From Mobula hypostoma (taxonomy: Eukaryota): a stretch of DNA of 64,000 bases. The stretch is taken from contig NC_086108.1 in assembly GCF_963921235.1 (NCBI RefSeq), positions 17,918,001 to 17,982,000 on the forward strand, given 5' to 3'. Below the pieces are notes generated by a model. It was not told the origin of the DNA. It did not search any database and was given only the letters and a program-made list of their open reading frames with translations. Position numbers and translations under genes: made by a program. Below, piece after piece: positions 2,904 through 33,518 of this stretch; position 1 is the first letter of the stretch; each line of letters opens with the position of its first letter.

Positions 2904-4029
2904 CTTCAACACCATTGCAGGCCCTGGAGGGATTCTTTGGGCCCTTGCAGTTGAATTCGCAATCCATTCAGCTCTACTGGTCTGAGTTGATGCAAATGTT
3001 TCCCAATAGCTCCTACTGCTCAGTGAGGGACGGAATAGGCTTGCATCCCATTACCATCATAGTGAGAGCTGGGGCTTTGCTTGGGGTGGGGCTGAGGGAG
3101 TGTGTGAAGCTCCCATGTTGACCAAGTTTTAAGGGTTATATCTGGGATCTGTTTGGTCAGGGAATTGGATTGTGATTAAAGATTATCAACTTGAGTTACT
3201 TTCCCACTCCATCTGTTGAGTGATCAGGCTGAGGAATAACATTATCTGGGGCTTCAGAGTGACTTTGCCTTCTGTCCTTTAAATTCTTGTGATGCTCACA
3301 CCTGTGAGAGCCCATTGGTGGTGTTCCAAATTATGTACTCAGACCCATGGGTATGCACAGGTAGCCTAGAGCAGGGGGTGACGGTTGTGTGCATGAAAAG
3401 GTCAAGGATTGTTCTGCATTTCAGAGGTTACTTGTCCTTAAAGCAGAAAGTATGAAGTGAAAATGTTTGACTTTGAGGCTCAGCAAGCTGCAGTTGAGTA
3501 AATGTTACTGAAAGTCTCCAGAGCGCGAGATGAGCCAACCAACAAATATCAGGCTGGGTTTAATAAAACTCTACAAAAATTCCAGCCTGTGGGAAAGTGG
3601 TCAGTTGGCAAATATTGACAGGTACCTCTGGGGAGGTGAGGGTGTTCCTTGAATACATCATTAGAGTACTGTGAAGATAGCCGGCACTTTCCTATTTGCA
3701 GGGAGGTAAAGCCCCCATTCATGTTTCAGGGGTCACTGGTCTCTCACTCATCTGAGTGCACAGATCAAAGCGGGGGGGGGGGTGCAGATTCACATTTCCC
3801 TTGAGCTATGATGATCAAAGTGGGAGGGGGGAGAGATACGCATTGTCCCTCCAGGGATGGGCTATGATGATCAAAGGGTGGGCCCTTGGCAATGATGAGT
3901 AAAGGACTGGATCAGTGCGAGATTTCAGTCAAATATCAGATAAAAGTGAATGATTTACTAAGCAGGACACTCTGGTGTGAAAGTTTAACTGCTGTGCTGT
4001 GTGGCATTGAATTATCTGTCTATGACTGT

Positions 4030-4862
4030 TGTTACGAGAATACACATAAAATTAAGATGTTTGCTGGCCTGGGCTAGCATCAGTGGCATCAGCAGTTGGT
4101 CTGCCACCTGCCCTCAGGGGAAGGAGAGATAAGGAACAATGGAGCAGCGTCTGGAGATGTGTAATGAAGGGATGTGGGAGGAAGAGCTGTCTGGAGCGGC
4201 TCCCCCCTTTGAACCCTGAACTGTTTGAAGTGATGGACAGGCGATACCCCAGCAGGGGGATAAAAAGGGACAGGTTCGCTAAGACAGACACACACGCCAC
4301 CCAAGGTAACGAGACCCTGGAAGCGGTACGCTTCTCATGAGTGGGTGGAAAGGTACGATCAGCGGGAACCCGGTGTGTGTCCGCCCTTGCCTGGGTGCCG
4401 GGTTCACTGCAGAGGATCGACCGCATCTGGAGGAGGGGTCACAGTCGGTGACCTCAGGTGACATCACCAAGGACCCGCCCAAATGCTGTTTGTGAGCCAT
4501 CTCGCTGGTCTGTGAGTGAAGCTGTGCTGAATGATGAGTTGTTCCTATTCTATGTCTCTCTTCCCCCACCTTGTCCATCGCCATGGCAACGATTACTGCG
4601 AACTGAACTACAAACTGAAATGAACTTTGAGTCATTTTGAAATTGGTCATTTACCCCTAGACAACGATAGAGCTTGATTGATGCTGTTATCTTAATTCTG
4701 TGCACATGTGTGGTTATCATTGTTGAATTGTTGCATTTATTATCCTTTCGATTACTGTGTTGCTTGTTTCTTTAATAAAACTTTCTTAGTTCTAGTACTC
4801 CAGACTCCAACTGAGTGATCCATTTCTGCTGGTTTGGCAACCCAGTTACGGGGTACGTAACA
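4030..4862 (+). repeat. 5' LTR (833 bp)
   Basis: Direct repeat of 8061-8889; AATAAA at 4774-4779; TATA-like gataaaaa near 4259. Confidence 0.97.
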
Positions 4863-4866
4863 TAAG

Positions 4867-4884
4867 TGGGGGCTCGTCCGGGAT
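4867..4884 (+). promoter_or_regulatory. Primer binding site complementary to tRNA-Pro 3' end
   Basis: TGGGGGCTCGTCCGGGAT, the 18-nt Pro PBS known from MLV, starting 4 nt after the LTR. Confidence 0.95.
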
Positions 4885-4960
4885 TTTGAACGCTAAATTT
4901 GGGACGGAGTAAATTGATTGGGTTAAAATTCCCGAAAGAAAGAAAAGACAAACAGCAGAA

Positions 4961-7888
4961 ATGGAGGTTGAGGAATTTATAAAGGCGCCGACCTTGGAGG
5001 CATTAGAGGATGCCAGGAAATCGGAATTGATAGCTGTGGCCAAACGGGTGAATCTTGCTAAGGTGAAGTCGACAATGAGGAGAGAGGAGATACACAGAGC
5101 TATTGTAGAGCACTATGTATCTAAAGGTGTGTTTCCCCAAGGTGAGCTGGGGGTGGTGTCTATTGAAAAACCTGCTGGAGACGCGGTACAGGTACAGCTT
5201 GAAAAACTGAGACTCGAGCACGAGTTCCGGGTACGGCAGTTAGAACACGAAGAGAAGCAGTTAGAAAGGCAGGAGAAAGAGAGAGAGTTAGAAAGGCAGG
5301 AGAAAGAGAGAGAGTTAGAAAGGCAGGAGAGAGAGAGAGAGTTAGAAAGGCGGGAGAAAGAGAGAGAGTTAGAAAGGCGGGAGAGAGAGAAAGAGGTAGA
5401 AAGGCAAGAGAGAGAAAGACAGTTGGAGAGAGAGGAGAAACAGAGGGAAAGGGAATTTGAGCTGGAGAAGTTAAAGATAAGGGCCGAGCAGGGGCTCGTG
5501 CCGAACCAAGGTGGAGGGTTCCGGGCGACCCAGGAGGTTAGGCTGGTTCCCCCATTTGACGATACCGATGTGGATCGGTACTTTCTCCACTTCGAAAAGG
5601 TGGCTATAAGTCAGGAATGGCCGAGGGATAAGTGGGTTGTCTTACTTCAGAGTGTACTGAAAGGGAAGGCCCAACAAGCTTACTCCGCTTTATCCGCGGA
5701 AGATGCCCAGAAGTATGAGGTGGTGAAGGAGGCCATCCTCAGGATTTATGAGTTGGTCCCGGAGGCATACCGGCAGAGGTTCCGGAATGCGAGGAAGCAG
5801 TGGGACCGCACGTATTTGGAGTTTGCTCGCGAGATGCAAACATATTGTGAGCGTTGGTGCGCCTCGAAGGGGGTAGAGGGGGATTATGACAGACTGCTGC
5901 AGCTGATTCTGATTGAGCAGTTTAAAGGTTGTGTCCCTGAGGGTATGAGACCCTACCTCGATGAGAAAGAGGCAGCCACGTTAGCCGTAACTGCTAAGTT
6001 AGCGGATGAGTATGCGTTGACACATAAAATGAAGGTTGCCCCGAGTAAAGGCTACCAGAAGGGTAGTCAGGACGGCGGGGAGAGTCCACTGGAAAAGTCA
6101 GAAAGTAAGCCGGGGACTAGTGAAAAGGATAAGGTAGACCGGGAGCAGTCTGGTAGGAAGTCTCCTGGGGTCGTCTGTTATAATTGTGGGAAAGTCGGAC
6201 ACTTTGCGTCCAGGTGCTTTGCCCCAAGAAAGGAGACGGGGAAAGGAAAAGCGGAAATTTTGAATGGCTGTATTGAGCTGTTAAGCGAACTGCTAGGGAA
6301 GGACAGGTCTGAAAAAGTCCAGGAAGGGCGCGAGAGGTTTATCTCGGCCGGACTGGTGTCAGTGAAAAAGAGGTTAAAACCAGTTCCAGTGCGGATCTGG
6401 AGAGACACGGGAGCGTGTCAGTCACTAATACTGAAGAGTGTATTAGAGTTTAGCTCAGAGACCCAGACTGGAGAGGTAGAGGTCAAAGGTGTTGGGGAAG
6501 GGACAGAGTCAGTCCCTTTGCACCAGATACATTTACAGAGCAACCTGGTCTCTGGACTAGTCACGATCGGGGTGAGGTCCGAAATACCGATGAAAGACGT
6601 GGAAGTCTTGCTCGGTAATGACATCGCCGGAGGAATCGTGTTCCCAGTCGTGAGATTGACGGGTCAGCCTGCCAGCATGGAGGCCCCGCCCGCGATGGTG
6701 AATTTGGCTGAAACATTTCTGCCAACCTTGTATGAGACAGGGTGTAGTGAGATAAGAGGTAGTGAGGGAGCTGGGACGGACGTAGCAGTAGCCAGGAAAG
6801 AATTTGTGCAGACGCAGGAGCGAGACGAGGGGCTGATGGTTTTTGCCGAGACCGCTCTCTCTGACACAGCCTTGACAAGGGAACTAGTAGGCTATTGTGC
6901 GGATGAGGAAGTGCTAAGGAAGAAAGGGAAATCAAGGACAGTATCCGCAGATGAGGAGTGGGGGGTGGTGCAAAAGAGTTATGGGGATGAGGTTTTTAAC
7001 ATGGCCCACGATGTACCCCCCGGTGGACATTTTGCGGTGCTGGAGGAAACAGTTGGTGGAATCATGAAAGAGAGTTACCGGCTGCCCAGGGGGAAAAATG
7101 TTATTGATCATGACCGACGCGAACTGAGACGGTCACCGGCTTTTGATATGCTAACAAACCTAGTCGGTGTTAGCGTGGAAATCAATGAAGCTAGGGGCCC
7201 CTTGATAAGAGAAAAAAACCATTTTGAAAAGATTAGGATGGGATCGGTCAGATGGGAGAAGGCTATTGTTTTGGCCAGATCTACTGATAAGGTCTCTCCT
7301 TTAATCCCCGAAGGAGTAATTAAACGACTCGCACCCATGTGTTTGATTGTCCCGAGGAAATGCAAAGAACTGGGACGTTGGGTGATTGTGGTTACAATAG
7401 GGCGGCCAAGTAAACAACACCCATATTTTTTGAGTAATTCAGTGACTAAAGGGCTGATGAACACAGAGGTGTGTATTGGCAATTTAACACGGCTGTCTGA
7501 AGCCAGCTTGATAGTGAACCTTGAAAAAAATGAATTCGGCCACACGAAGGTCACTTACCTGGGAATTGTGGTGACACAGGGGCAGCTGGCAGTGATGCAA
7601 GCTACAGTGCAGGCTATCGCTGACCTCCCAACCCCGACAGACAAGAGGGCCCTCAGAAGGCTTTTGGAGATGGTGGGGTACCGCAGGAAGTTTTGCAATA
7701 ACTCTGCGGTCAATACCCGTCCCCCTCCTACTAAGCCCTTGCGAGAGAAAATTGAGTCGGAATGGGACGACCCTTGTTGTTGTGGTCCGGGACAAAACCA
7801 AATGAGAGGTTACATTGGTCGCAATTCATCAGTGTTTTTGGCCACTATGAAGTTTGCTGAGTTGGAGCCTGGTCTAAGGGATTATTAA
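4961..7888 (+). CDS. Gag (coiled coil, SCAN-like capsid, CCHC knuckle)-aspartic protease fused to degenerate IN/RT/RH remnants, 975 aa
   Basis: PEAYRQRFR...LILIEQF (SCAN-like, ~5759-6012); CYNCGKVGHFASRC (6176-6217); RDTGA (6404); AHDVPPGGH integrase HH remnant (7007-7030); RT C-terminal part VNLEKNEFG..VTYLG..LRRLLEMVGYRRKFC. Confidence 0.9.
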   Translation: MEVEEFIKAPTLEALEDARKSELIAVAKRVNLAKVKSTMRREEIHRAIVEHYVSKGVFPQGELGVVSIEKPAGDAVQVQLEKLRLEHEFRVRQLEHEEKQLERQEKERELERQEKERELERQERERELERREKERELERREREKEVERQERERQLEREEKQREREFELEKLKIRAEQGLVPNQGGGFRATQEVRLVPPFDDTDVDRYFLHFEKVAISQEWPRDKWVVLLQSVLKGKAQQAYSALSAEDAQKYEVVKEAILRIYELVPEAYRQRFRNARKQWDRTYLEFAREMQTYCERWCASKGVEGDYDRLLQLILIEQFKGCVPEGMRPYLDEKEAATLAVTAKLADEYALTHKMKVAPSKGYQKGSQDGGESPLEKSESKPGTSEKDKVDREQSGRKSPGVVCYNCGKVGHFASRCFAPRKETGKGKAEILNGCIELLSELLGKDRSEKVQEGRERFISAGLVSVKKRLKPVPVRIWRDTGACQSLILKSVLEFSSETQTGEVEVKGVGEGTESVPLHQIHLQSNLVSGLVTIGVRSEIPMKDVEVLLGNDIAGGIVFPVVRLTGQPASMEAPPAMVNLAETFLPTLYETGCSEIRGSEGAGTDVAVARKEFVQTQERDEGLMVFAETALSDTALTRELVGYCADEEVLRKKGKSRTVSADEEWGVVQKSYGDEVFNMAHDVPPGGHFAVLEETVGGIMKESYRLPRGKNVIDHDRRELRRSPAFDMLTNLVGVSVEINEARGPLIREKNHFEKIRMGSVRWEKAIVLARSTDKVSPLIPEGVIKRLAPMCLIVPRKCKELGRWVIVVTIGRPSKQHPYFLSNSVTKGLMNTEVCIGNLTRLSEASLIVNLEKNEFGHTKVTYLGIVVTQGQLAVMQATVQAIADLPTPTDKRALRRLLEMVGYRRKFCNNSAVNTRPPPTKPLREKIESEWDDPCCCGPGQNQMRGYIGRNSSVFLATMKFAELEPGLRDY
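5258..5420 (+). repeat. 27-nt coding tandem repeat (ELERQEKER), about 6 copies, within gag
   Basis: gagttagaaaggcaggagaaagagaga units with minor variation. Confidence 0.9.
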
Positions 7889-8048
7889 TAACACGTGTAA
7901 AAGGAACAGAAAATGTGATGACTGTCTGTCAAGGTGTTGACAGCTTCAAATTCTCTGTATTAGCTAAATAACTGTTAAAGATGTATATTGTGTATGTATC
8001 AGATAATGTAGTCATGTTTGTAATTTTTACCTCCCGGTAAAAATCCTT

Positions 8049-8060
8049 AAAGGGGGGAAG
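8049..8060 (+). promoter_or_regulatory. Polypurine tract
   Basis: aaaggggggaag directly abutting the 3' LTR. Confidence 0.92.
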
Positions 8061-8889
8061 TGTTACGAGAATACACATAAAATTAAGATGTTTGCTGGCC
8101 TGGGCTAGCATCAGTGGCATCAGCAGTTGGTCTGCCACCTGCCCTCAGGGGAAGGAGAGATAAGGAACAATGGAGCAGCGTCTGGAGATGTGTAATGAAG
8201 GGATGTGGGAGGAAGAGCTGTCTGGAGCGGCTCCCCCCTTTGAACCCTGAACTGTTTGAAGTGATGGACAGGCGATACCCCAGCAGGGGGATAAAAAGGG
8301 ACAGGTTCGCTAAGACAGACACACACGCCACCCGAGGTAACGAGACCCTGGAAGCGGTACGCTTCTCACGAGTGGGTGGAAAGGTACGATCAGCGGGAAC
8401 CCGGTGTGTGTCCGCCCTTGCCTGGGTGCCGGGTTCACTGCAGAGGATCGACCGCATCTGGAGGAGGGGTCACAGTCGGTGACCTCAGGTGACATCACCA
8501 AGGACCCGCCCAAATGCTGTTTGTGAGCCATCTCGCTGGTCTGTGAGTGAAGCTGTGCTGAATGATGAGTTGTTCCTATTCTATGTCTCTCTTCCCCCAC
8601 CTTGTCCATCGCCATGGCAACGATTACTGCGAACTGAACTACAAACTGAAATGAACTTTGAGTCATTTTGAAATTGGTCATTTACCCCTAGACAACGATA
8701 GAGCTTGATTGATGCTGTTATCTTAATTCTGTGCACATGTGTGGTTATCATTGTTGAATTGTTGCATTTATTATCCTTTCGATTACTGTGTTGCTTGTTT
8801 CTTTAATAAAACTTTCTTAGTTCTAGTACTCCAGACTCCAACTGAGTGATCCATTTCTGCTGGTTTTGGCAGTTACGGGGTACGTAACA
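8061..8889 (+). repeat. 3' LTR (829 bp)
   Basis: Matches the 5' LTR except for two substitutions and a small indel cluster near the 3' end. Confidence 0.97.
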
Positions 8890-9561
8890 GTGTGCCCTGC
8901 TTAGCTCCACTGTACATCTTTTGTACATGTTCAGTGCACATCTTTTCTTCGTTGGTTGTAAGGTTCTTAGATGTTCTGGACAAACTGCATTTGTGTGGGA
9001 ATTTTAACATGGCCCTGTGGCACTTCACAAGAGTATCATCATCCAGAAATGGATGCATAAAATGCTAGCAGTATTGTCACAAACTGTAGGTCATAGAGTG
9101 GCCATCTTGGTTAGCTTGGAAGTAGGCCCTTCAGCGATGCTAAACAAGATTGCTACCTAAGCTAGTCCTATTCGACCACATTTGGAGACCCCTCTGCCTT
9201 TCTTATCTGTGTATCTGTCCAAGTAGGTTTTACAAGAGTGTAACACCTGTGTAGCACCGATCTTATTATGTGTGACTACTCACCGCACTTTGAGAAAATC
9301 AAATTACACTAAGTGCTAGTAAGTCATCAGAGGTTTCTGGTTTCGGAAAGAGGCAGTAAATTCAAACTACACACTTCCAGGGATAATGTTTGTTTTAAAA
9401 AAAAATGCACGGGACTTCCGGCGTCGAGTATGGAGTGAGTTGGTGCGTGTGAGTGTGGCTCCCGATTTTTATTGAAAATCTACCTGTTTATCTTTGCCGT
9501 ATGCTCGAGATAACTGGATACTTACCATTGTGAACAACGCGGGACATAGCTGGACATTGAA

Positions 9562-10470
9562 ATGGCAAGTAGAATGTACCTTCGAAGTAAAGCTGGGGAA
9601 AAAGATAGCGAAGCCTCGAGCAAGCAGACTGATGTTACAGAAATGGCGCCGTTGCACGCTGCTGGAGCTGGTCCCGGACCTGCCCTACCCGATGACTTGG
9701 AGAGGCTTCGTTTAGTGCTTATTACTGACATGACGCAAGCGGTGCATTCTGCCCTAAAAAGGGAACTTGAAGATGCTTTATCACCAGTGACTGCTACCAT
9801 GGAACAAATTATGTCTGCTTACGAGACACACGACGAACGCATTCGTGAGGTTGAAGACGGCCTGAATGATTACAGTGACCGACTGGTGAGCGCCAAAGCC
9901 GCCATTGCAGCGTTGCAGAGCGAAAACGCAGTTCTGAAGGGAAAGCTAGATGACCTCGAAAATCGGTCGCGGAGATCTAATTTGAGAGTGGTCGGCATTC
10001 CTGAAAATTTGGAAGGTTCGGACCCTGTTAAATTTATGACCGAGTTTTTTGACGAAGTGCTGGGGGCAGATTTTTTCCCAAGTCCTCTCGTACTTTCGCG
10101 TGCTCACCGAGTCGGACGTAAACCATCCGGTGTCTCTGGAGCCAAGCAAACGAGACCAAGAATGTTCCTGGTTTGCTTTCACTCCTTTCAAGATAAGCAA
10201 CGCATCATCAACAGACGGAAGCAGGAGCTGTATTTCCGCGGACACCGCGTGCTTTTTTATGAAGATTTTAGTGCGGAGCTGGGTAAAAAACGAGCAGCTT
10301 TCAAGGAGGTGAAATCCCTGCTTTACGGGAAAGGGGTCAGGTTCGGCCTCTTGTATCCTGCCCAGCTCCGGGTCATGCATGAAGGTAAAAAGCATTATTT
10401 TGATACACCAGAGGCGGCCAAAGAGTTTTACCATTCACGCTGGGGAGAACAAGAACGAGAAGAGCAATGA
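9562..10470 (+). CDS. L1 ORF1p (coiled coil, RRM, CTD), 302 aa
   Basis: LDDLENRSRRSNLRVVGIPE, RAHRV, FYEDFSAEL..KRAAF, FGLLYPAQLRV. Confidence 0.93.
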   Translation: MASRMYLRSKAGEKDSEASSKQTDVTEMAPLHAAGAGPGPALPDDLERLRLVLITDMTQAVHSALKRELEDALSPVTATMEQIMSAYETHDERIREVEDGLNDYSDRLVSAKAAIAALQSENAVLKGKLDDLENRSRRSNLRVVGIPENLEGSDPVKFMTEFFDEVLGADFFPSPLVLSRAHRVGRKPSGVSGAKQTRPRMFLVCFHSFQDKQRIINRRKQELYFRGHRVLFYEDFSAELGKKRAAFKEVKSLLYGKGVRFGLLYPAQLRVMHEGKKHYFDTPEAAKEFYHSRWGEQEREEQ

Positions 10471-11078
10471 CTTTTTTTTTAGGTTATTCGTGCAGCATTG
10501 AAGGGGCCTCATGCCGAAGCAAACTGTTAATTTTCACAATTCACTTCTTTGTTCATTTTTTCCAGTTTAATTTGTGGAACGCGATCGAGTCGAACTGCTA
10601 TGCTGCCGAAACTGATTAACAAAAACTTTCAACCAGCAAAATGTAAATATTTGGGATTTATATCTCGGGTGTTTAAGTTGCCCAGTGTGTTTTTTTATGT
10701 TTTTAATGCTTAGCTTGACCTGTGTTATCTTTAGCCTATATGTTATATTAAAGGTAGTATAAGTGATAGGATAAATTTTAGGGAGGGGAGCCACCCTAGA
10801 TTAGATTGAAAATTGGGTTGTATGGGGGACGCCTTGGAAGTTTTTTGTTGGGTACTGCCTGCGATCATCCTCAATTGGGGAGGTAGATCTAGACTTCGGG
10901 GGTTAATTGGGTTTTTTTGTTTGTGTAAAGGGGTGGGGGGAGTGTTTTGGGGGATTACCATGGCAGTTTATTCTTTTGTGTGTTACGGATTGATCAGACT
11001 TTCTTTTTATTGTGCGTTATTGTGTGCAACTTATACCCTCACACTGTTTTGGATTGTAGGCCCTGTGTGTCTTTTGAT

Positions 11079-14000
11079 ATGGTTAACATGAGTGCAGCTG
11101 ATGGAGGCCACCCTGTTAGGTTTATTTCTTGGAATGTAAAGGGGCTTAATGGTCCGGTTAAAAGAGCTAAAGTTTTCTCACATCTGAAACAATTAAAAGC
11201 TGATATACTATTTCTACAAGAGACACATTTAAGAGTGGAGGACCATAATAGACTTCGTAAAGCATGGATTAGTCAGGTTTTTCATTCCAGATTTAATAGT
11301 AGGTCCAGGGGGGTGGCAATATTAATCACCAAAAGAATGCAGTTCACACCATCTGATGTAATCAGTGACCCTAATGGTCGCTTTATTATAGTCTCTGGCT
11401 CTCTCTTTCAGATACCTGTTATTTTGGTAAATGTTTATGCTCCTAATTGGGACGATGTCCAATTTGCAAATAGGGTTTTGTCATTAATACCTAACCTGAA
11501 TACACATAAGCTAATCTTTTCCGGAGATTTGAACTGTGCTATTGACCCACTGCTTGATAGGTCTTGCCCTAGGGGAACATTTTCTGGTATGGCAAAGGCC
11601 TTCTCGATGTTTATGCAACAAAATGGCTATATGGATCCTTGGAGATTTTTGAATCCATCAGTTAGGCAATTCTCTTTCTTCTCTCATGTTCACCACTCCT
11701 ATTCCAGGCTATACTATTTCTTTATAGATAATTCCTTGATACCTATGATTAGACAAATTGAATACACTGCTATAGTTATATCTGATCACTCGCCCGTGAA
11801 ACTGGACCTATGTTTTCCTTTAAACGTTAGAGAACGGCCTCTGTGGAGACTTAACCCCCTTTTGCTTTCTAATGAGAAATTTTGTAGTTATATATCGGCT
11901 AACATTGACACATTCTTCGAGACTAACAAAACTGAGTCGGTATCGTACTCTTTACTTTGGGAAACTTTAAAAGCTTACTTGAGGGGTCAAATAATATCTT
12001 ATACTTCACATGCCAATAAAGAGCGTAGGAAGGAAATGCAAGTGTTATTGAAATCTATTTGGGACCTGGATAGAAAATACTCTGAGGCACCCACTGCGGA
12101 ATTATATAAAAGCCGGGTTGATTTGCAAGCGAAGTTTAATCTCCTATCTACAAACCTATCAGAACAATTAATTCTTAAGACACGTGGCCTCTATTATGAA
12201 TATGGTGACAAGGCGAGCCGGCTTATGGCTCATCAGTTGAAACGTCAAGCTGCATCACGACTTATTCCTCAGGTAAGAGACATGCACCAGAACTTGACAA
12301 GCAATCCAAAAGAGATTAATAACATCTTTGCAACTTTTTATTCCTCTCTGTATGCCTCAGAGTTCCCCTCAGATAAAACAAATATGGAACGTTTTTTAGA
12401 TAATTTGGAAATACCAACTCTTGAACCAGAGGAAGTGGAGAACCTAGATCGGGCTCTTGGGCAGGAAGAGATTAATAATGCCATTATGGCTATGCAGAGT
12501 GGTAAGTCCCCAGGTCCTGATGGTTATCCAATAGAATTTTATAAGAAATTTAAGGATAAGCTCACACCGGTCCTTCTAGAAGTGTTTCAGGAATCTTTGG
12601 AGAATGGCTCCTTACCCCCTTCTCTTTCACAGGCAGCTATTTCACTACTTCTTAAAAAGGACAAGGACCTGACCCAATGTGGATCATATCGCCCCATTTC
12701 ACTTTTGAATGTAGATGTGAAAATTTTGGCTAAAGTGCTTGCATGTCGTTTAGAACATCCCCTTCCCAAGATAATTTCAGATGATCAAACAGGTTTTATT
12801 AAAAATCGCTATTCTTTTTTTAATATCCGTCGACTGGCTGATGTGGTTTATTCACTGAGTGATTCTCCAAGTCCAGAGGTTGTTATCGCCTTGGACGCAG
12901 AGAAGGCATTTGATAGAGTGGAATGGGTATATTTATTTAGTGTTTTGGAGAAATTTGGATTTGGCAGAATATTTATAGCTTGGGTTAAGCTATTATACCA
13001 CTCGCCTTCAGCGTGTATACAGACAAATTATTTTCGATCTGGCTATTTCCCATTAAAACGTGGCACTCGCCAAGGCTGCCCACTGTCCCCTCTTCTTTTT
13101 GCAATTGCAATTGAGCCTCTTTCTATTGCAATTAAGTCAACTACATTATTTCAAGGTGTTATAAGAGGGGACATGGAACACCGTGTTTCCCTATATGCTG
13201 ATGACCTCTTACTTTATGTTAGCGACCCTATAGGTAGTAGTCCTGCTATTGTGTCATTATTAGGTCAATTTGGAGCCTTCTCTGGCTATAAACTGAACTT
13301 TCAAAAAAGCAAATGCTTTCCCATTAATAACTTGGCCCTACAGATCCGACAGGAATCCTTGCCCTTTCCTTTATCTCAAGATGGTTTTGTATACCTAGGA
13401 ATACATATTACTCGCTCTTTTACATCTCTGTTTGAAGCTAACTACAGGCCTCAGGTTAGCCAAATGAAGGCTGATTTCGAGAGATGGCGCAGTTTACCCC
13501 TTACTATAGCTGGGAGAATTCAGTCAGTGAAAATGACTATACTTCCTAGATTTCTCTATTTGTTTCAGTGTTTGCCAGTTTTCTTATCTAAGTTATTTTT
13601 TAAATCAGTTGATCAAGCTATAACCTCCTTTATTTGGGAAAATAAGGTCCCAAGGGTTAATAAGTGCATTCTTCAAAGAGGTCGTGACATAGGTGGAATG
13701 GGTCTTCCCAGCTTTATTCATTATTACTGGGCATCGAACATTCAAAAAGTATTATTTTGGCTTCACCGGCCAGATATAATCTGGTGCCTGCTTGAGTCAC
13801 GATCTTGCCACTCCTCGTCTCTCCCAGCTTTGGTGTATTCTTCCTTACCATTGAAATCCTCTCAATTCACATCTAACCCGGTCGTGCTCTCTACCCTCAA
13901 AATTTTTAATCAATTTCGCTGCCACTATAAGTTCCTATCAGCTTCAGTTTTGGGCCCCATTCATAAAAACCATTTATTTCCTCCCTCCACATTCGATTCA

Positions 14001-14882
14001 GCTTTTAGACAATGGGGTTTGAATGGTCTTATGCGCATTAAGGATTTGTATACTGATAACATATTTGATAGTTTTGATAACCTGCGCGGTAAGTATGGCC
14101 TTCCGCATAATCATTTTTTTAAATACCTGCAGATTCGCCACTTTGCCAAGGAAAAATTTCCCTCTTTTCCTGTTCTACCACCTGCTATGTTATGGGAAAA
14201 ATTCACTCTTAGCTTTAACAATAAGGGGCTGATTTCTGAACTATACTCTCAGCTGATGTCTTTGGGAGTTCAAGATCTAAACAAAACTAAGAGTAGGTGG
14301 GAGGACGACCTCGGTATGGACCTTGCGGAAGAATATTGGGCAAAAGTATTGAATAGGGTTCATTTCTCATCATCATGTGCTAGACTGGGGCTCATACAAT
14401 TCAAAGTTTTACACAGGGTACATTTAAGTAAAGCCAGACTGGCAGACATATACCCTGGGACAGACGCTGGCTGTGACAGGTGTTCCTTCTCTCCGGCTGG
14501 TTTAATACATGCATTTTGGTCATGCCCTCGGCTTGATGACTATTGGGCACTGGTTTTTAAAATTATCAGTGAGGTTTTGGGGGTGACACTGAGACCTTGC
14601 CCACTTATAGCTGTATTTGGTGTGGCAGATGATGATTTGGGTTTAAATGCAAGCCAGTCGGATATCATTGCATTTACATCGCTATTGGCCCGTAGGAAAA
14701 TTGTGCTGGTTTGGAAATCGGCCACTCCCCCAACTGCTGCTGCTTGGTTAGAAGATGTAATGTTTTTTCTGAAATTAGAAAAGATTAAATTCACTTTGAG
14801 GGGGTCTGTGAAAAAGTTCTATTCAAAATGGGGACCTTTCTTATCATATTTTGGGAGTCTTAAGGAATTACCTACTAGTTGA
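11079..14882 (+). CDS. L1 ORF2p (APE endonuclease, RT, C-terminal CCHC), about 1267 aa from the first ATG
   Basis: SWNVKGLN, LQETH, NVYAPN, GDLN, SDHSPV; QGCPLSP, YADD; CDRC..H..C. Open frame begins at 10947, first in-frame ATG at 11079. Confidence 0.95.
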   Translation: MVNMSAADGGHPVRFISWNVKGLNGPVKRAKVFSHLKQLKADILFLQETHLRVEDHNRLRKAWISQVFHSRFNSRSRGVAILITKRMQFTPSDVISDPNGRFIIVSGSLFQIPVILVNVYAPNWDDVQFANRVLSLIPNLNTHKLIFSGDLNCAIDPLLDRSCPRGTFSGMAKAFSMFMQQNGYMDPWRFLNPSVRQFSFFSHVHHSYSRLYYFFIDNSLIPMIRQIEYTAIVISDHSPVKLDLCFPLNVRERPLWRLNPLLLSNEKFCSYISANIDTFFETNKTESVSYSLLWETLKAYLRGQIISYTSHANKERRKEMQVLLKSIWDLDRKYSEAPTAELYKSRVDLQAKFNLLSTNLSEQLILKTRGLYYEYGDKASRLMAHQLKRQAASRLIPQVRDMHQNLTSNPKEINNIFATFYSSLYASEFPSDKTNMERFLDNLEIPTLEPEEVENLDRALGQEEINNAIMAMQSGKSPGPDGYPIEFYKKFKDKLTPVLLEVFQESLENGSLPPSLSQAAISLLLKKDKDLTQCGSYRPISLLNVDVKILAKVLACRLEHPLPKIISDDQTGFIKNRYSFFNIRRLADVVYSLSDSPSPEVVIALDAEKAFDRVEWVYLFSVLEKFGFGRIFIAWVKLLYHSPSACIQTNYFRSGYFPLKRGTRQGCPLSPLLFAIAIEPLSIAIKSTTLFQGVIRGDMEHRVSLYADDLLLYVSDPIGSSPAIVSLLGQFGAFSGYKLNFQKSKCFPINNLALQIRQESLPFPLSQDGFVYLGIHITRSFTSLFEANYRPQVSQMKADFERWRSLPLTIAGRIQSVKMTILPRFLYLFQCLPVFLSKLFFKSVDQAITSFIWENKVPRVNKCILQRGRDIGGMGLPSFIHYYWASNIQKVLFWLHRPDIIWCLLESRSCHSSSLPALVYSSLPLKSSQFTSNPVVLSTLKIFNQFRCHYKFLSASVLGPIHKNHLFPPSTFDSAFRQWGLNGLMRIKDLYTDNIFDSFDNLRGKYGLPHNHFFKYLQIRHFAKEKFPSFPVLPPAMLWEKFTLSFNNKGLISELYSQLMSLGVQDLNKTKSRWEDDLGMDLAEEYWAKVLNRVHFSSSCARLGLIQFKVLHRVHLSKARLADIYPGTDAGCDRCSFSPAGLIHAFWSCPRLDDYWALVFKIISEVLGVTLRPCPLIAVFGVADDDLGLNASQSDIIAFTSLLARRKIVLVWKSATPPTAAAWLEDVMFFLKLEKIKFTLRGSVKKFYSKWGPFLSYFGSLKELPTS

Positions 14883-17136: not shown

Positions 17137-19219
17137 TCATTCCATACTCCCACCACTCTGTGTGTGAAGAAGCCCCCCCCTAATGTTCCCTTTAAACTTT
17201 TCCCCCCTCACCCTCAACCCATGTCCTCTGGTTTTTTTCTCCCCTTGCCTCAGTGGAAAAAGCCTGCTTGCATTCACTCTATCTATACCCATCATAATTT
17301 TATATACCTCTATCAAATCTCCCCTCATTCTTCTACGCTCCAGGGAATAAAGTCCTAACCTATTCAGCCTTTCTCTGTAACTGAGTTTCTCAAGTCCCGG
17401 CAACATCCTTGTAAACCTTCTCTGCACTCTTTCAACCTTATTTATATCCTTCCTGTAATTTGGTGACCAAAACTGAACACAATACTCTAGATTTGGCCTC
17501 ACCAATGCCTTATACAACTGTAGATTCTGTCTCTTAGTACTCCCTCCAATAACTTACCAACTACCGACGTTAAACTTACCAGCCTATAATTTCCCGGGTT
17601 ACTTTTCGATCCTTTTTTAAACAACGGAACAACATGAGCCACTCTCCAATCCTCTGGCACGTCGCCCATAGACAGCGACATTTTAAATATTTCTGCCAGG
17701 GCCCCCGCAATTTCAACACTAGTCTCCTTCAAGGTCCGAGGGAACACCCTGTCAGGTCCTGGGGATTTATCCACTTTAATTTTCCTCAAGACAGCAAGCA
17801 CCTCCTCCTTTTCAATCTGTACAGTTTCCATGATCTCACTACTTGATTCCCTTAATTCCATAGACTTCATGCCAGTTTCCTTAGTAAATACAGATGCAAA
17901 AAACCTATTTAAGATCTCCCCCATTTCCTTTGGTTCCGCACATAGCTGACCACTCTGATCTTCAAGAGGACCAATTTTATCCCTTACAATCCTTTTGCTC
18001 TTAATATACCTGTAAAAGCTCTGTGGATTATCCTTCACTTTGACTGCCAAGACAACCTCATGTCTTCTTTTAGCCCTCCTGATTTCTTTCTTAAGTATTT
18101 TCTTGCACTTCTTATACTCCTCAAGCACCTGATTTACTCCCTGTTTCCTATACATTTCATACAACTCCCTCTTCTTCTTTATCAGAGTTGCAATATTCCT
18201 TGAGAACCAAGGTTCCTTATTCCTATTCACTTTGCCTTTAATCCTGACAGGAACATACAAACTCTGCATTCTCAAAATTTCTCCTTTGAAGTCTTCCCGC
18301 CTACTTGAAGGCTTCCCACCTACCAATCACATCTTTGCCAGAGAACAACCTGTCCCAATCCACGCTTTTTAGATCCTTTCTCATTTCTTCAAATTTGGCC
18401 TTCTTCCAGTTCAGAAACTCAGCCCTAGGACCAGATCTATCCTTGTCCATGATCAAGTTGAAACTAATGGTGTTATGATCACTGGAACCAAAGTGCCCCC
18501 CTACACAGACTTCCGTCACTTGTCCTAACTCGTTTCCTAACAGGAGATCCAATATTGCATCCCCTCTAGTTGGTCCCTCTATATATTGATTTAGAAAACT
18601 TTCCTGAACACATTTTACAAACTCTAAACCATCTAGACCCCTAACAGTATGGGAGTCCCAATCAATATATGGAAAATTAAAATCCCCTACCACCACAACT
18701 TTATGTTTCCTGCAGTTGCCTGCTATCTCTCTGCAGATTTGCACTTCCAAGTTTCGTTGACTATTGGGTGGTCTGTAATACCATCCCACTAATGTGGCCA
18801 TACCTTTCCTGTTTCTCAGCTCCACCCATAAGGACTCAACAGACAAGCCCTCTAATCTGTCCTGCCTGATATGCTGTAATATTTTTCCTAACAAGCAATG
18901 CTACTCCCCCACCTTTCATTCCTCTGCCTTGATAACATCTGAAACATCGGAACCCTGGAATATTAAGCTGCCAGTCCTGCCCCTCCTGTAGCCAAGTTTC
19001 ACTAATTGCTATAACGTCATAATTCCACGTGTCAATCCACACCCTCAACTCATCCGCCTTCCCCGTAATACTCCTAGCATTGAAATATATACACCTCAGA
19101 AGATTTTTACCACCACTCACAACCTTTCTATTAGCGGATTTGCTTGAACTTTTAACATCATTTATTTTCACCCCAGCCCCACTGTCAGCTCTGGCACTCT
19201 GGTTCCCATCCCCCTGCAA
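17137..19219 (-). pseudogene. Disrupted CR1 ORF2 (APE endonuclease plus partial RT)
   Basis: YFNARSI, ISETWL, YYRPPN, VGDFN, SSDH, KSPGPD. Frameshifts present, and about 733 bp including the FADD motif are missing at 17518/17519 relative to the neighbouring copy. Confidence 0.9.
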
Positions 19220-19221
19220 AT

Positions 19222-20176
19222 CTAGTTTAAAGCCTCCCCAACAGCACTAACAAACCTCCCTGAAAGCATATTGGTCCCCCTGTAGTTCAAGTGTAACCCG
19301 TCTCTCTTGTACAGGTCCCACCTGCCCCAGAAGAGGTCCCAATGATCCTGAAATCTGAAACCCTGCCCCCTACACCCGTTCCTCAGCCATTTGTTCATCC
19401 TCCAGAGCATCCTATTCCTACCCTCACTGGCACGTAGCACAGGTAGCAATCCTGAGATTACCACCCTTGAGGTCCTGCTTTTCAACTTCCTACCAAGCTC
19501 TCTATACTCACTCTCCAGGACCTCCTCACTCTTCCTTGCAATGTCACTGGTACCAATGTGCACCACGACATTTGGCTGGTCACCCTCCCACTTCAGAATG
19601 TCATGCAAGTGATCAGAGACATCCTTGACCCTGGCACCCAGGAGGCAACAAACCATCCTGGATTCTCTGTCACGACCACAGAACCTCCTATCTGCACCTC
19701 TAACTATCGAGTCCCCTATCACTACCGCTCTCCTCTTTTTCCACCCTCCCTTCTGCACTGCAGAGCCAGACTCAGTGCCCGAGATCTGGCTACTGCAGCT
19801 TGTCCCAGGTAAGTCATCCCCCCCAACAGTATCCAATGCAGTATACTTGTTGTTGAGGGGAATGGCCACAGGGGAACCCTGCTCTACCTGCCCTTTCCTC
19901 TTCCCTCGCCTGACAGTGACCCAATTTCCTGTCCTCTGCACCTCTGGCGTAACTACCTCCCTGTAGCTACTATCTATCATTCTCCCGAATGATCCGCAGC
20001 TCATCCAGCTCCTGCTCCAGTTCCCTAACGCAGTTTGTCAGGAGCTGCAGCTGGATGCACTTCCTGCAGGTGTCGTTGTCAGGGACACCAGAGGGCTCCC
20101 TGACTTCCCACATCCTGCAAGAGGAGCATTCCAACATCCTGCCTGGCATTCTCTCTACTCTAAAGAATCTGAACAA
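19222..20176 (-). pseudogene. CR1 ORF1 (Cys-rich finger plus SGNH esterase), frameshifted near 19980
   Basis: CSSC...CRKC; VVIGDSIVRG, HIGTSD, DGLHLN. Confidence 0.88.
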
Positions 20177-20292
20177 AAAACTTACCGGAACCTACCCTGG
20201 CCTCTGCCTGTTCTCGCCGAAGCCTGTTGAGCCAAAGCCATCCCACTCTGACTCAGTCCACTCCGACGATGGCCGCTGTATATGGTGTTCTG

Positions 20293-20574
20293 CTTTTTAA
20301 ACCTTGGTGTGCTACATCACGTGCCTGCGCAGTGCAGACCCTTCTCCCCGAGCAGTGTTTAAAAAAACCTGACTTTTTCTACCCGATTTCTTCACTCCCT
20401 TCTTCTCAGCTGCTTGCTTCAACTGAAACAAGAACCATTGAAAATTTCTCTTTTTAAACCTTGGCGCGCTGTGTCACGCGCCTGCGCAGTGCAGACCCTT
20501 CTCCCCAAGCAGTGTTTAAAAAAAACAACTTTTTCTACCCGATTTCTGTACTCCCTTCTTCTCAGCTGCTTGCT
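20293..20574 (-). repeat. Two ~125-bp monomers (period 157) in the CR1 5' UTR
   Basis: 20293-20418 and 20450-20574 align closely. Confidence 0.9.
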
Positions 20575-20607
20575 TTGTTTTCATTTCATTATGCCATCAG
20601 AGAAATG

Positions 20608-22148
20608 ATAGAAACCATAGAAACCATAGAAAAAGTACAACACAGAAACAGGCCTTTTGGCCCTTCTTGGCTGTGCCGAACCATTTTCTGCCTAGTCCCA
20701 CTGACCTGCACACGGACCATATCCCTCCATACACCTCCCATCCATGTATCTGTCCAATTTATTCTTAAGTGTTAAAAAAGAAACTGCATTTACCACCTCG
20801 TCTGGCAGCTCATTCCACATTCCCACCACTCTCTGTGTGAAGAAGCCCCACCTAATGTTCCCTTTAAACTTTTCCCCCTTCACCCTTAACCCACATCCTC
20901 TGGTTTTTTCCTCTCCTTGCCTCAGTGGAAAAAGCCTGCTTGCATTCACTCTATCTATACCCATCATAATTTTATATACCTCTATCAAATCTCCCCTCAT
21001 TCTTCTACGCTCCAGGGAATAAAGTCCTAACCTATTCAACCTTTCTCTGTAACTGAGTTTCTCAAGTCCCAGCAACATCCTTGTAAACCTTCTCTGCACT
21101 CTTTCAACTTTATTTATACTCTTCCTGTAATTTGGTGACCAAAACTGTACACAATACTCCAGATTCGGCCTCACCAATGCCTTATACAACCTCATCATAA
21201 CATTCCAGCTCTTATACTGAATACTTTGATTAATAAAGGCCAATGTACCAAAAGCTCTCTTTACGACCCTATCTACCTGTGATGCCACTTTTAGGGAATT
21301 TTGTATCTGTATTCCCAGATCCCTCTGTTCCACTGCACTCCTCAGTGCCTTACCATTAACCCTGTATGTTCGATCTTGGTTTGTCCTTCCAATGTGCAAT
21401 ACCTCACACTTGTCTGTATTAAATTCCATCTGCCATTTTTCCAGCTGGTCCAAGTCCCTCTGCAGGCTCCGAAAACCTTCCTCACTGAGTACTACACCTC
21501 CAATCTTTGTATCATCAGCAAATTTGCTGATCCAATTTACCACATTATCATCCAGATCATTGATATAGATGACAAATAACAATGGACCAAGCACTGATCC
21601 CTGTGGCACACCACTAGTCACAGGCCTCCACTCGGAGAAGCAATTCTCTACTACCACTCTTTGGCTTCTTCCATTAAGCCAACGTCTAATCCAATTTACC
21701 ACCTCTCCATGTATACCTAGTGACTGAATTTTCCTAACTAACCTCCCATGTGGGACCTTGTCAAAGGCCTTACTGAAGTCCATGTAGACAATATCCACTG
21801 CCTTCCCTTCATCCACTTTCCTGGTAACCTCCTCGAAAAACTCCAATAGATTGGTCAAACATGACCTATCACGCACAAAGCCATGTTGACTCTCCCTAAT
21901 AAGTCCCTGTCTATCCAAATGCTTGTAGATTCTGTCTCTTAGTACTCCCTCCAATAACTTACCAACTACTGATGTTAAACTTACCGGCCTATAATTTCCC
22001 GGGTTACTTTTCGATCCTTTTTTAAACCACGGAACAACATGAGCCACTCTCCAATCCTCCGGCACCTCACCTGTAGACAGCGACATTTTAAATATTTCTG
22101 CCAGGGCCCATGCAATTTCAACACTAGTCTCCTTCAAGGTCCGAGGGA
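20608..22148 (-). mobile_element. 5'-truncated CR1 of the same family; RT frame open (20692-22137)
   Basis: Same tail and 3' UTR as the 16936 copy; YMDFSKAFD, GVPQGSVLGP, KFADD. Confidence 0.95.
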
Positions 22149-22384
22149 TCTAAATGGGGTTAGAGGATACAATTTGATATTTACAGTGCTGGTGGAATGA
22201 ATTGTGATGGTCTCACCGTGACTGAATATTATGGGAGATACATATGCCATCAATGCAGTGGGCCAAAACACGATAAAATAATTCTGAACCAACAGCTCAA
22301 CTCCTTTACTTGCACTTTCAGTTGCAAGTTGAGTCGTTGTTTAGGAAGACGGATGCAATTTTACCATTCATTTCAAGATGATTA

Positions 22385-32480: not shown

Positions 32481-33147
32481 TGAGGTCTGAGGATGTGCTG
32501 GGGGCAACCCACAAGTGTCACCATGCTTCTGGTGCCAACATAGGATACCAACAGCTTACTAACCCTTGCTAACCAGTACGTCTTTGGACAGTGGGAGGAA
32601 ACCTACACAGTCACGGGGAGAATGTACAAATTCTTTATAGGCAGTGTTGGGAATCGAATGCTGATATCTGTCATCGTAAAGTGTTACGCAAACCTCTATG
32701 CAACTGTGCCATGTAATGTACTGTGCTAACTACTATGCTACCGTAGTAGATGGACAAGTATTGGTGGTTATTGGATCAGGTGGGAATCGATCTGTGATCC
32801 AGGAGCAGATGAGTGAAAGAAAGTAACCCGATTTAAAATAAGACAGGTTGGTCCCTCTTTCCTGCCCACCATCCACACCCCCACTCCACTGAGCCCAACC
32901 ATCTACTAAGCAAGTCATGTTTCATTAAAAACATTCCCGTTTGAAATTCATTTCAATTTAAAAACTCAGTAGGGGTTTCTATCTGTTCCATTTCTCCCAC
33001 TTGATTCCAAATGCTGGCTCTGTCTCCTCTTGCATAACAGGCATGAAACAGTTCCCCTTGCTCTCTTAAACCTGCACTCTTGTGTATTTTTTTCAGTTGA
33101 ATTAATCGATAGCAGGTAGCTGAGACGAGACACAGCATACATTTTGT

Positions 33148-33518
33148 GTCTCCCCTTCCCCCACCACCACTCCGCAGCCCTGTCTTCCTCAGATCCCACC
33201 GTCAACTCCTGGGCCCTCAGTGGCTCCATCTTCCTCTCACCCCAACCCTCCCCTCTCCACTGACACCCCCAGCCTCCCCCCTCCCCCCTCTGATCCCAGC
33301 TCTCAAGACTCCAGCCTTGAACTCCAGGCCGGGTCTTTATGTACTGCTGTTGTGACTCCCGTCTCCCCTTCCCCCACCAATACTCTGCAATCCCGTCTCC
33401 CTCAGATCCCACCGTCAGCTCCTGGGCCCTCAGAGGCTCCATTTTCCTCTCACCCCAACCCTCCCCTCTCCATTGACACACCCAGCCTCCCCCCTCCCCC
33501 CTCTGATCCCAGCTCTCA
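33148..33518 (+). repeat. Two ~158-bp C-rich repeats (period 213) at the PLE 5' end
   Basis: 33148-33305 aligns with 33361-33518. Confidence 0.88.

What the first reader, a model, noticed from the sequence alone, without database searches (positions are those of the whole stretch)
4030..8889. Young streamlined Gmr1-type element: intact SCAN-Gag plus protease fused in frame to a catalytically dead mini-Pol
Seen: only 3.2 kb lies between two near-identical LTRs, and one 975-codon ORF fills most of it with no stop. Gag, the CCHC knuckle and the DTG protease look intact. Integrase keeps only the HH half of its zinc finger (7007-7030), with no recognisable DDE core. The RT YxDD position reads CIGN (TGT ATT GGC AAT, 7472-7483). 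RNase H survives only as out-of-frame scraps (LLSWSLV, RVKGTENV, DCLSRC* ending at 7940) just before the PPT. Established: IN-before-RT order and a SCAN-like capsid define Gmr1-like Gypsy elements, the proposed source of the tetrapod SCAN domain. Inference: the heavy pol decay predates this recent insertion, and several deletions left the frame open for about 400 codons. This points to a non-autonomous lineage that makes and processes its own capsid but borrows RT and IN. The dead Pol tail may be kept for a function (recruiting or interfering with helper Pol, or RNA stability).
Basis: partly seen in the sequence, partly recalled or inferred. Interest (0 to 1): 0.75.

Follow-up and report, generated by a model that had tools for sequence, protein, structure and literature searches.

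The report
Parasitic retrotransposon keeps junk frame open
This is one of about 1,400 young copies of a crippled jumping gene in a ray genome that keeps its shell and protease genes, likely borrows its copying enzymes from a rare intact relative, and keeps a 400-codon dead tail free of stop codons while its amino acids drift, most likely to protect its RNA from decay.

Summary
Observation confirmed; interpretation largely supported. The element is a young copy of a deleted Gmr1-type Gypsy family: 1,413 exact matches to its deletion junction against 17 for the young full-length relative. LTR and gag are 91-100% identical to that relative and interleave with it in trees; protease and pol remnant are an older cassette (64-88%). 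Old and young deleted subfamilies share three pol deletions (867, 384, 258 nt). Capsid and protease are under purifying selection (dN/dS about 0.2). The pol remnant drifts near neutrally (0.79-0.84, intervals reach 1) yet keeps its frame: 12 of 12 indels are in frame and no stop was fixed where about 9-12 were expected. So the frame is selected, probably not the protein; avoidance of nonsense-mediated decay is the likeliest reason (inferred, untested). Gag-keeping non-autonomous elements are known (mouse IAP 1Δ1, wheat Sabrina_SA, TR-GAG). The scan noted a pol-collapsed Gmr1 family, probably this one, on other DNA of this genome (e1-8032323). New variant of a known kind.

The parts
4026..4029 (+). 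5' target-site duplication (4 bp; one mismatch to the 3' copy)
   Evidence: perfect 4-bp duplications in 35 of 37 sister copies and 20 of 20
4030..4862 (+). 5' LTR, TG...CA, 833 nt; 93-99% identical (aligned bases) to the young full-length helper's LTR
4863..4880 (+). Primer-binding-site position; starts with the same 9 nt as in the helper copies; primer tRNA not identified
4961..7888 (+). Single 975-codon ORF: Gag - protease - pol remnant
5223..5475 (+). 27-nt tandem repeats coding an E/R-rich stretch of Gag; length differs between copies and helpers
5759..6028 (+). SCAN-like capsid C-terminal domain
   Evidence: Pfam PF02023 E 1.1e-12
6176..6217 (+). CCHC zinc knuckle; identity to the young helper drops just downstream (~6280)
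6323..6658 (+). Aspartic protease (DTG at 6404-6412); diverged from the helper's (dS 0.26) under purifying selection (dN/dS 0.21)
6659..7114 (+). Protease-integrase linker and integrase N-terminal remnant (HH at 7007-7030); in-frame indels of 63, 21, 15 and +3 nt; ends at the 867-nt deletion of the integrase core
7115..7426 (+). End of integrase, linker and RT N-terminus; in-frame indels 21, 18, +3; ends at the 384-nt deletion in RT
7427..7776 (+). RT 3' half: YIDD position reads CIGN (7472-7483), then a 54-nt deletion and +3; ends at the 258-nt RNase H deletion
7777..7940 (+). RNase H C-terminal remnant: in frame to ~7848, then frame-breaking indels (14, 8, 4 nt); ORF stop 7886-7888; helper-equivalent stop ends at 7940
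8049..8060 (+). Polypurine tract; region from 7930 onward is again 93-100% identical to the young helper
8061..8889 (+). 3' LTR, 829 nt; AATAAA at 8805
8890..8893 (+). 3' target-site duplication

Best explanation
This is a young copy of a high-copy deleted Gmr1-type LTR retrotransposon that encodes Gag and protease, lacks working integrase and reverse transcriptase, likely borrows them from a rare full-length relative with the same LTR, and keeps its dead 400-codon pol tail in frame, most likely so that translation stops near the RNA's 3' end and the RNA escapes nonsense-mediated decay. Shown: shared deletions, copy excess, helper-like LTR and gag, purifying selection on capsid and protease, near-neutral amino-acid change in the tail, selection against stops and frameshifts in the tail up to its last ~130 nt. 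Inferred: trans-mobilisation by the helper (about 0.95); LTR and gag exchange by template switching in co-packaged RNAs (about 0.85); frame rather than protein is what is kept (about 0.8); RNA decay is the reason (about 0.55). A stop right after protease would lengthen the 3' UTR from about 0.9 kb to about 2.1 kb.
For: Copies: 1,413 exact matches to the deletion junction against 17 for the young full-length form. Of 40 copies taken in list order, 37 gave an LTR pair (median 99.66% identical) and 35 of those 37 a perfect 4-bp TSD. Helper: 4 of 7 young full-length copies fetched have an uninterrupted frame of 1,551-1,580 codons; one was scanned and has SCAN, CCHC, H2C2, rve, RVT_1, RNase H in that order. 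Mosaic: 91-100% to the helper over 4030-6279 and from 7930 on, 64-88% between; deleted and full-length copies interleave in the capsid and LTR trees, while all 27 deleted copies group apart from 9 full-length ones in the tail tree. Selection (kappa 3): capsid 0.18 (0.06-0.41), protease 0.21 (0.09-0.41), tail 0.79 (0.59-1.06) and 0.84 (0.64-1.15), same codons between helpers 0.24 (0.13-0.38). In 60 young copies, tail variants shared between copies have the same replacement:silent ratio as private ones (68:32 vs 110:52, p=1), unlike gag-protease (39:56 vs 113:60, p=0.0002). Frame: 12 of 12 tail indels against the helper are multiples of three, the 3 beyond ~7848 are not; no stop fixed on a 0.25 substitutions/site branch, about 9-12 expected (P(0)<=1.5e-4); 5 of 5 tail stops in young copies are private; in 40 old copies shared indels are 15 in frame to 2 not, private ones 17 to 17 (p=0.013), and 2 to 5 in the last 130 nt. 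A second deleted Gmr1 family with another LTR and no detectable SCAN or knuckle also has a ~1,000-codon frame ending 140-260 nt before the 3' LTR in 2 of 4 copies. Precedent: premature stops destabilise unspliced RSV RNA through Upf1 (PMC2925335, Background section read).
Against: No RNA measurement supports decay. Tail dN/dS point estimates are below 1, and at kappa 2 one interval excludes 1 (0.53-0.96), so weak protein constraint is not excluded. In old copies five tail positions carry a stop in 2-4 of 40 copies; the four-copy one is at a CGA codon and includes copies on different branches, so recurrence is likely, but propagation is not excluded. Three shared frameshifts exist (one in 2 young copies, two in 2-3 old copies). 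Two of the three large deletions lie at in-frame microhomologies, which could favour in-frame joins. Twenty of the 40 old copies, and the copies of the second family, were picked for long frames. The normal 3' UTR is already ~0.9 kb, and wheat non-autonomous Angela elements spread with fully broken frames (PMC9744471, passages). Only 14 of 36 young copies still have the whole frame.
Confidence: 0.55

Rival explanations
1. Translation-coupled cis effect, as in mouse IAP 1Δ1: ribosomes must run through the tail, or the long fusion must be made, for the RNA to be delivered to or packaged in the particle; decay is not the issue.
For: Explains frame selection with neutral amino acids as well as the best reading. 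The IAP 1Δ1 gag-pol fusion is reported to act in cis and its copies dominate new insertions (PMC6466679, passages); here deleted copies outnumber helpers about 80 to 1.
Against: A Gag-protease ending at an early stop should give the same cis delivery (inference). The frame constraint ends ~130 nt before the ancestral stop, which points to stop position. The second family keeps its frame with no detectable capsid domain.
Confidence: 0.2
2. The tail has a sequence-tolerant protein role: spacer, degron, control of protease timing, or a residual RT-thumb surface that binds or interferes with helper Pol.
For: dN/dS point estimates 0.71-0.97 across kappa values, one interval below 1. The RT 3' half is the best-kept piece (85% DNA identity to the helper; 40-50% to distant Pol). 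The young lineage lost the conserved protease-integrase junction motif, so the tail may stay attached.
Against: The RT piece itself has dN/dS about 1.1 between deleted subfamilies (kappa 4). Shared and private variants have the same replacement:silent ratio. The tail keeps shrinking in steps.
Confidence: 0.18
3. No selection on the frame: in-frame joins come from microhomology bias in template switching plus chance survival.
For: The 867- and 384-nt deletions sit at 5-7 nt in-frame microhomologies. Some sampling favoured long frames.
Against: Microhomology cannot explain zero fixed stops where 9-12 are expected, nor frameshifts crowding into the last 130 nt, nor 10 private frameshifts and 5 private stops against no widely shared one in young copies.
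Confidence: 0.05

Closest known systems
Gmr1-like Ty3/Gypsy LTR retrotransposons
   Same: SCAN-like capsid followed by PR, IN, RT-RH (bioRxiv 10.1101/2025.03.03.638093, passages read); the full-length relative has this order and the remnants keep it.
   Different: Integrase core, RT N-terminal half and most of RNase H are deleted; catalytic YIDD reads CIGN; deleted copies outnumber full-length ones about 80 to 1.
Mouse IAP 1Δ1 subtype
   Same: One internal deletion fuses gag and pol in frame; needs helper proteins; outruns the helper; fusion reported to act in cis (PMC6466679, passages; the primary paper was not held).
   Different: IAP is an endogenous retrovirus with part of gag removed. Here gag and protease are whole and selected, the tail has 12 in-frame indels from several steps, and its amino acids drift near neutrally.
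Wheat RLG_Sabrina_SA / WHAM (semi-autonomous Gag-Pro) and Angela autonomous/non-autonomous pairs
   Same: Gag-protease kept, RT and IN lost, mobilised by a partner; LTR tree differs from internal tree (PMC9744471, passages).
   Different: Plant elements; the passages read describe no open pol tail, and non-autonomous Angela frames are broken. Here the swap covers gag as well as the LTR.
TR-GAG elements of plants
   Same: Short non-autonomous LTR elements with one Gag ORF, still mobile (PMC4350172, abstract only).
   Different: Plant; Gag only per the abstract; here protease and a 400-codon pol remnant follow in frame.
RSV unspliced RNA and its stability element
   Same: Premature stops in an unspliced LTR-element RNA trigger Upf1-dependent decay (PMC2925335, abstract and Background).
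   Different: RSV shields an early natural stop with an RNA element; this family would avoid the problem by having no early stop. Analogy only.

Membership tests
Gmr1-like Gypsy | SCAN-like capsid C-terminal domain in Gag | tested here: met
   PF02023 E 1.1e-12
Gmr1-like Gypsy | Order PR - IN - RT - RNase H | tested here: met
   Full-length relative: H2C2 689-745, rve 766-861, RVT_1 1178-1335, RNase H 1399-1530; remnants collinear
Gmr1-like Gypsy | RT phylogeny with the named Gmr1 element | not tested
   No named Gmr1 sequence was fetched; relatives with the same domain order were used
Autonomous LTR retrotransposon | Intact integrase core and RT catalytic motifs | tested here: not met
   No rve or RVT_1; 867- and 384-nt deletions, CIGN for YIDD
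Non-autonomous, Gag-protease-keeping LTR element | Two LTRs, PBS, PPT, target duplications and many dispersed young copies without RT/IN | tested here: met
Non-autonomous, Gag-protease-keeping LTR element | Gag and protease under purifying selection | tested here: met
   dN/dS 0.18 and 0.21
Non-autonomous, Gag-protease-keeping LTR element | A contemporary autonomous partner with shared cis sequences | tested here: met
Non-autonomous, Gag-protease-keeping LTR element | Mobilisation in trans shown by experiment | not testable with these tools
   Inferred from anatomy and trees
IAP 1Δ1 (works like, not a member) | In-frame gag-pol fusion by internal deletion | tested here: met
   deletions lie in pol only
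IAP 1Δ1 (works like, not a member) | Retroviral IAP descent with part of gag deleted | tested here: not met
   Gypsy-type IN-before-RT order and whole gag
IAP 1Δ1 (works like, not a member) | Fusion protein or its translation acts in cis | not testable with these tools
   needs experiment
Domesticated host SCAN gene | Single fixed locus, usually with zinc-finger array, no LTR mobility | tested here: not met
   1,413 dispersed copies with LTRs and TSDs; no C2H2 array

The most novel reading that the evidence does not exclude
Single-ORF Gmr1 elements of rays can shed any protein function but not the open frame: their deleted parasites keep up to 1,000 junk codons stop-free as a shield against exon-junction-independent nonsense-mediated decay. 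Two families with different LTRs in this genome show the pattern, one without a detectable capsid. The ~1,400 young copies, many with a private stop at a different place, would be a natural allelic series for measuring how stop position sets RNA stability and transposition success in a vertebrate.
Probability: 0.45. Interest if true: 0.62.

Novelty: new variant of a known kind. Interest (0 to 1): 0.45.

Why it matters
The life-style (Gag-protease kept, enzymes borrowed) is known. What this case adds is a measured split between frame and protein: about 400 codons stay free of stops and frameshifts through many steps while their amino acids drift. If RNA decay is the cause, long open frames in retroelements and in 'uncharacterized' gene models are not by themselves evidence of protein function, and host RNA surveillance shapes how parasitic elements can shrink. 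The family also shows a parasite that renews its LTR and gag from its helper while carrying an older protease-plus-tail cassette, and that outnumbers the helper about 80 to 1. Copies are annotated as host proteins in public gene sets.

Tried and rejected
Single decayed copy with private deletions: rejected. Intact RT or integrase missed by eye: rejected. Domesticated SCAN gene: rejected (copy number, LTRs, TSDs). Expression: no RNA holder listed (eight runs only guessed to be RNA); four runs laid as contigs cover the element but say nothing on transcription. Structure: a single-sequence model of protease plus tail had mean pLDDT 30 and was not used. Primer tRNA: no tRNA gene in the window; not identified. 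Stingray proteins with Gag-protease followed by a degenerate second gag/protease-like stretch were first read as an independent open tail; the matching loci here turned out to be degenerate gag of other deleted families, so that reading was dropped. The window row in the pairwise alignment split the 867-nt deletion into pieces; the multiple alignment was used for it. L146 (5'-truncated) gave spurious gag-region differences; these inflate the private gag counts. Literature: searches listed no paper on this family or on frame-only selection in a non-autonomous LTR element; a mobulid genome preprint (10.64898/2026.10.27.761883, passages) gives only class-level repeat totals, and its supplements could not be seen. 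Most subscription papers and Repbase/Dfam were not searched, so the family may be catalogued there.

Full report
Observation. The element spans 4030-8889 with LTRs of 833 and 829 nt (99.0% with gaps) around 3,198 nt. One ORF, 4961-7888, has 975 codons. Pfam finds SCAN and a CCHC knuckle and no pol family. About 22 codons of RNase H are still in frame, and this copy's 4-bp target duplication has one mismatch. The nearest named proteins are from Mobula hypostoma (up to 95% over the tail) and M. birostris, so the host is likely a mobulid ray.

A family, not an accident. A 1-kb tail query gave 2,493 first-look candidates; all 40 scored matched full length at 99-100%, the window's own copy among them. 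A 23-nt pattern across the integrase deletion has 1,413 exact matches, the reversed control none. I fetched 20 of the best hits: 20 of 20 have two LTRs, a perfect 4-bp TSD and the same layout, 14 of 20 the whole frame. I fetched 40 of the first 41 listed pattern matches (one was already held): 37 gave an LTR pair (median 99.66%, range 96.9-100), 35 of 37 a perfect TSD, 14 of 36 measurable the whole frame. Contigs from runs of two coded organisms bridge the junction (X1, X5), so the family is not confined to this assembly.

The helper. An integrase query found 136 scored matches, several in frames above 1,400 codons. Of 20 fetched, 7 have LTRs 90-96% identical (with gaps) to the window's, with the same PBS start and PPT; 4 of these 7 have uninterrupted frames of 1,551-1,580 codons. 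The one scanned has SCAN, CCHC, H2C2, rve, SH3, RVT_1 and RNase H in Gmr1 order, the order described for Gmr1-like elements (bioRxiv 10.1101/2025.03.03.638093, passages). The matching undeleted pattern has 17 exact matches. For older forms the counts are 184 deleted (degenerate pattern) and 64 full-length; exact counts are lower bounds and the patterns are not equally strict.

Anatomy of the loss. A M. birostris protein shares the collapsed tail at 53% identity and led to 103 matches of older deleted subfamilies here. Old and young forms share deletions of 867 nt (integrase core and most of its C-terminal domain), 384 nt (RT N-terminal half) and 258 nt (RNase H); 36, 41 and 39 of 41 rows scored them at exactly these sizes in pairwise alignments. 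The motif decays YIDD, YIGD, CIGN. In the tail tree all 27 deleted copies group apart from the 9 full-length ones (FastTree support 1.0; no formal clade test), and the young family sits on a 0.25 substitutions/site branch: one origin, long before this insertion.

A mosaic. In 150-nt windows the element is 91-100% identical to two young helpers from 4030 to 6279 and 93-100% from 7930 on, but 64-88% between. In the capsid and LTR trees young deleted and young full-length copies interleave, and older deleted copies branch near older helpers. The likely cause is template switching between co-packaged RNAs (inference; PMC6894440, passages; PMC9744471, passages).

Selection. I used net divergence between groups of natural copies, with codon bootstrap (6 young deleted, 4 and 5 old deleted, 4 young and 2 older helpers). 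At kappa 3 (fourfold sites gave 2.5-3.5 for the relevant pairs): capsid 0.18 (0.06-0.41); protease against the helper's 0.21 (0.09-0.41) at dS 0.26, so the element's own protease is kept in working order; tail 0.79 (0.59-1.06) and 0.84 (0.64-1.15); the same codons between helpers 0.24 (0.13-0.38). At kappa 2 one tail interval is 0.53-0.96. In 60 young copies, shared and private tail variants have equal replacement:silent ratios (68:32, 110:52), unlike gag-protease (39:56, 113:60; p=0.0002; private counts include noise from one truncated copy).

The frame. Against the helper the window copy has 12 tail indels before ~7848 (63, 21, 15, +3, 867, 21, 18, +3, 384, 54, +3, 258), all multiples of three, and three after it (14, 8, 4), none; with an in-frame chance of 1/3 to 1/2 each, 12 of 12 has probability 2e-6 to 2e-4. 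About 3-4% of point changes would make a stop, so 9-12 were expected on the young family's stem and none was fixed. In young copies 5 of 5 tail stops and 10 frameshifts are private; 5 of 6 shared indels are in frame, the sixth a 1-nt gain in a C run in two copies. In 40 old copies (20 picked for long frames, 20 others of the best-ranked hits) shared indels are 15 in frame to 2 not, private ones 17 to 17 after dropping four rows that were the 867-nt deletion split in two copies (p=0.013); in the last 130 nt shared ones are 2 to 5. Against this: five positions have a stop in 2-4 old copies, and two large deletions lie at in-frame microhomologies.

How it likely works. The RNA is translated into Gag-protease-tail; Gag and protease build and mature particles; RT and integrase come from the helper's polyprotein in mixed particles (inferred). 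The tail's sequence matters little, its openness does. The stop lies 172 nt before the 3' LTR (helper about 120), and the constraint ends about 130 nt before the ancestral stop. A stop after protease would add about 1.2 kb of 3' UTR. Premature stops destabilise unspliced RSV RNA through Upf1 (PMC2925335, Background), so decay avoidance is my lead (0.55); a cis effect of translation as in IAP 1Δ1 (PMC6466679, passages) gets 0.2, a sequence-tolerant protein role 0.18, chance 0.05. A second deleted family with another LTR has no detectable SCAN or knuckle, yet 2 of 4 copies have frames of 995 and 1,065 codons ending 140-260 nt before the LTR, and its shared pol deletions against two full-length relatives are multiples of three where the alignment is clear (21, 513, 51, 207, 24, 112+17). 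These copies were picked for long frames and the gag part aligned poorly, so this is supporting, not decisive.

Known and new. Gag-keeping non-autonomous LTR elements are known: IAP 1Δ1, Sabrina_SA, TR-GAG (PMC4350172, abstract). Searches listed nothing on this family or on frame-only selection, within an open-access library. Verdict: real; new variant of a known kind; interest 0.45.

Noticed in passing
L163 (G000:C45:69240300-69248300, -), L164 (G000:C9:110590300-110598300, -), L165, L166: A second deleted Gmr1-type family with another LTR: gag eroded beyond Pfam detection, integrase core and RT N-terminus deleted, RT 3' part and RNase H kept, frames of 1,065 and 995 codons in 2 of 4 copies.
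   Followed up: partly
L151 (G000:C64:5811000-5817500, -): Mini LTR element, 1.75 kb inside, with a 478-codon degenerate gag/protease frame ending about 260 nt before the 3' LTR.
   Followed up: no
window 6690-6692: The conserved protease-integrase junction motif is lost stepwise in the young family: some copies have 27 or 45 nt more than the window copy at this place. The tail may therefore stay uncut (speculative).
   Followed up: partly
L138 (G000:C1:80365600-80371200): A young-family copy that lacks the 63-nt deletion and has 780 nt more near window 7223; possibly a recombinant or an insertion.
   Followed up: no
L060/L061 (G000:C80:24468000-24483000): Full-length copies in tandem that share an LTR.
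   Followed up: no
P0002, P0276: Public gene models built on this element carry host names (MACC1 isoform in M. hypostoma, UBE2G2 isoform in M. birostris): mis-annotation or exonisation.
   Followed up: no
P0010, P0012, P0014, P0017, P0018, P0023, P0026: Stingray proteins with SCAN-Gag and protease followed in frame by a degenerate second gag/protease-like stretch; origin not resolved.
   Followed up: partly
window 9550-14882 (+): Two-ORF non-LTR element right beside the finding: 306-codon ORF and an uninterrupted 1,317-codon endonuclease-RT ORF; L1-like by recall.
   Followed up: no
window 17499-22149 (-): Non-LTR element with an esterase-like (GDSL) ORF and an RT ORF; CR1/L2-like by recall.
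   Followed up: no
window 33124-35716 (+): RT followed by a weak GIY-YIG match in another frame; Penelope-like by recall.
   Followed up: no
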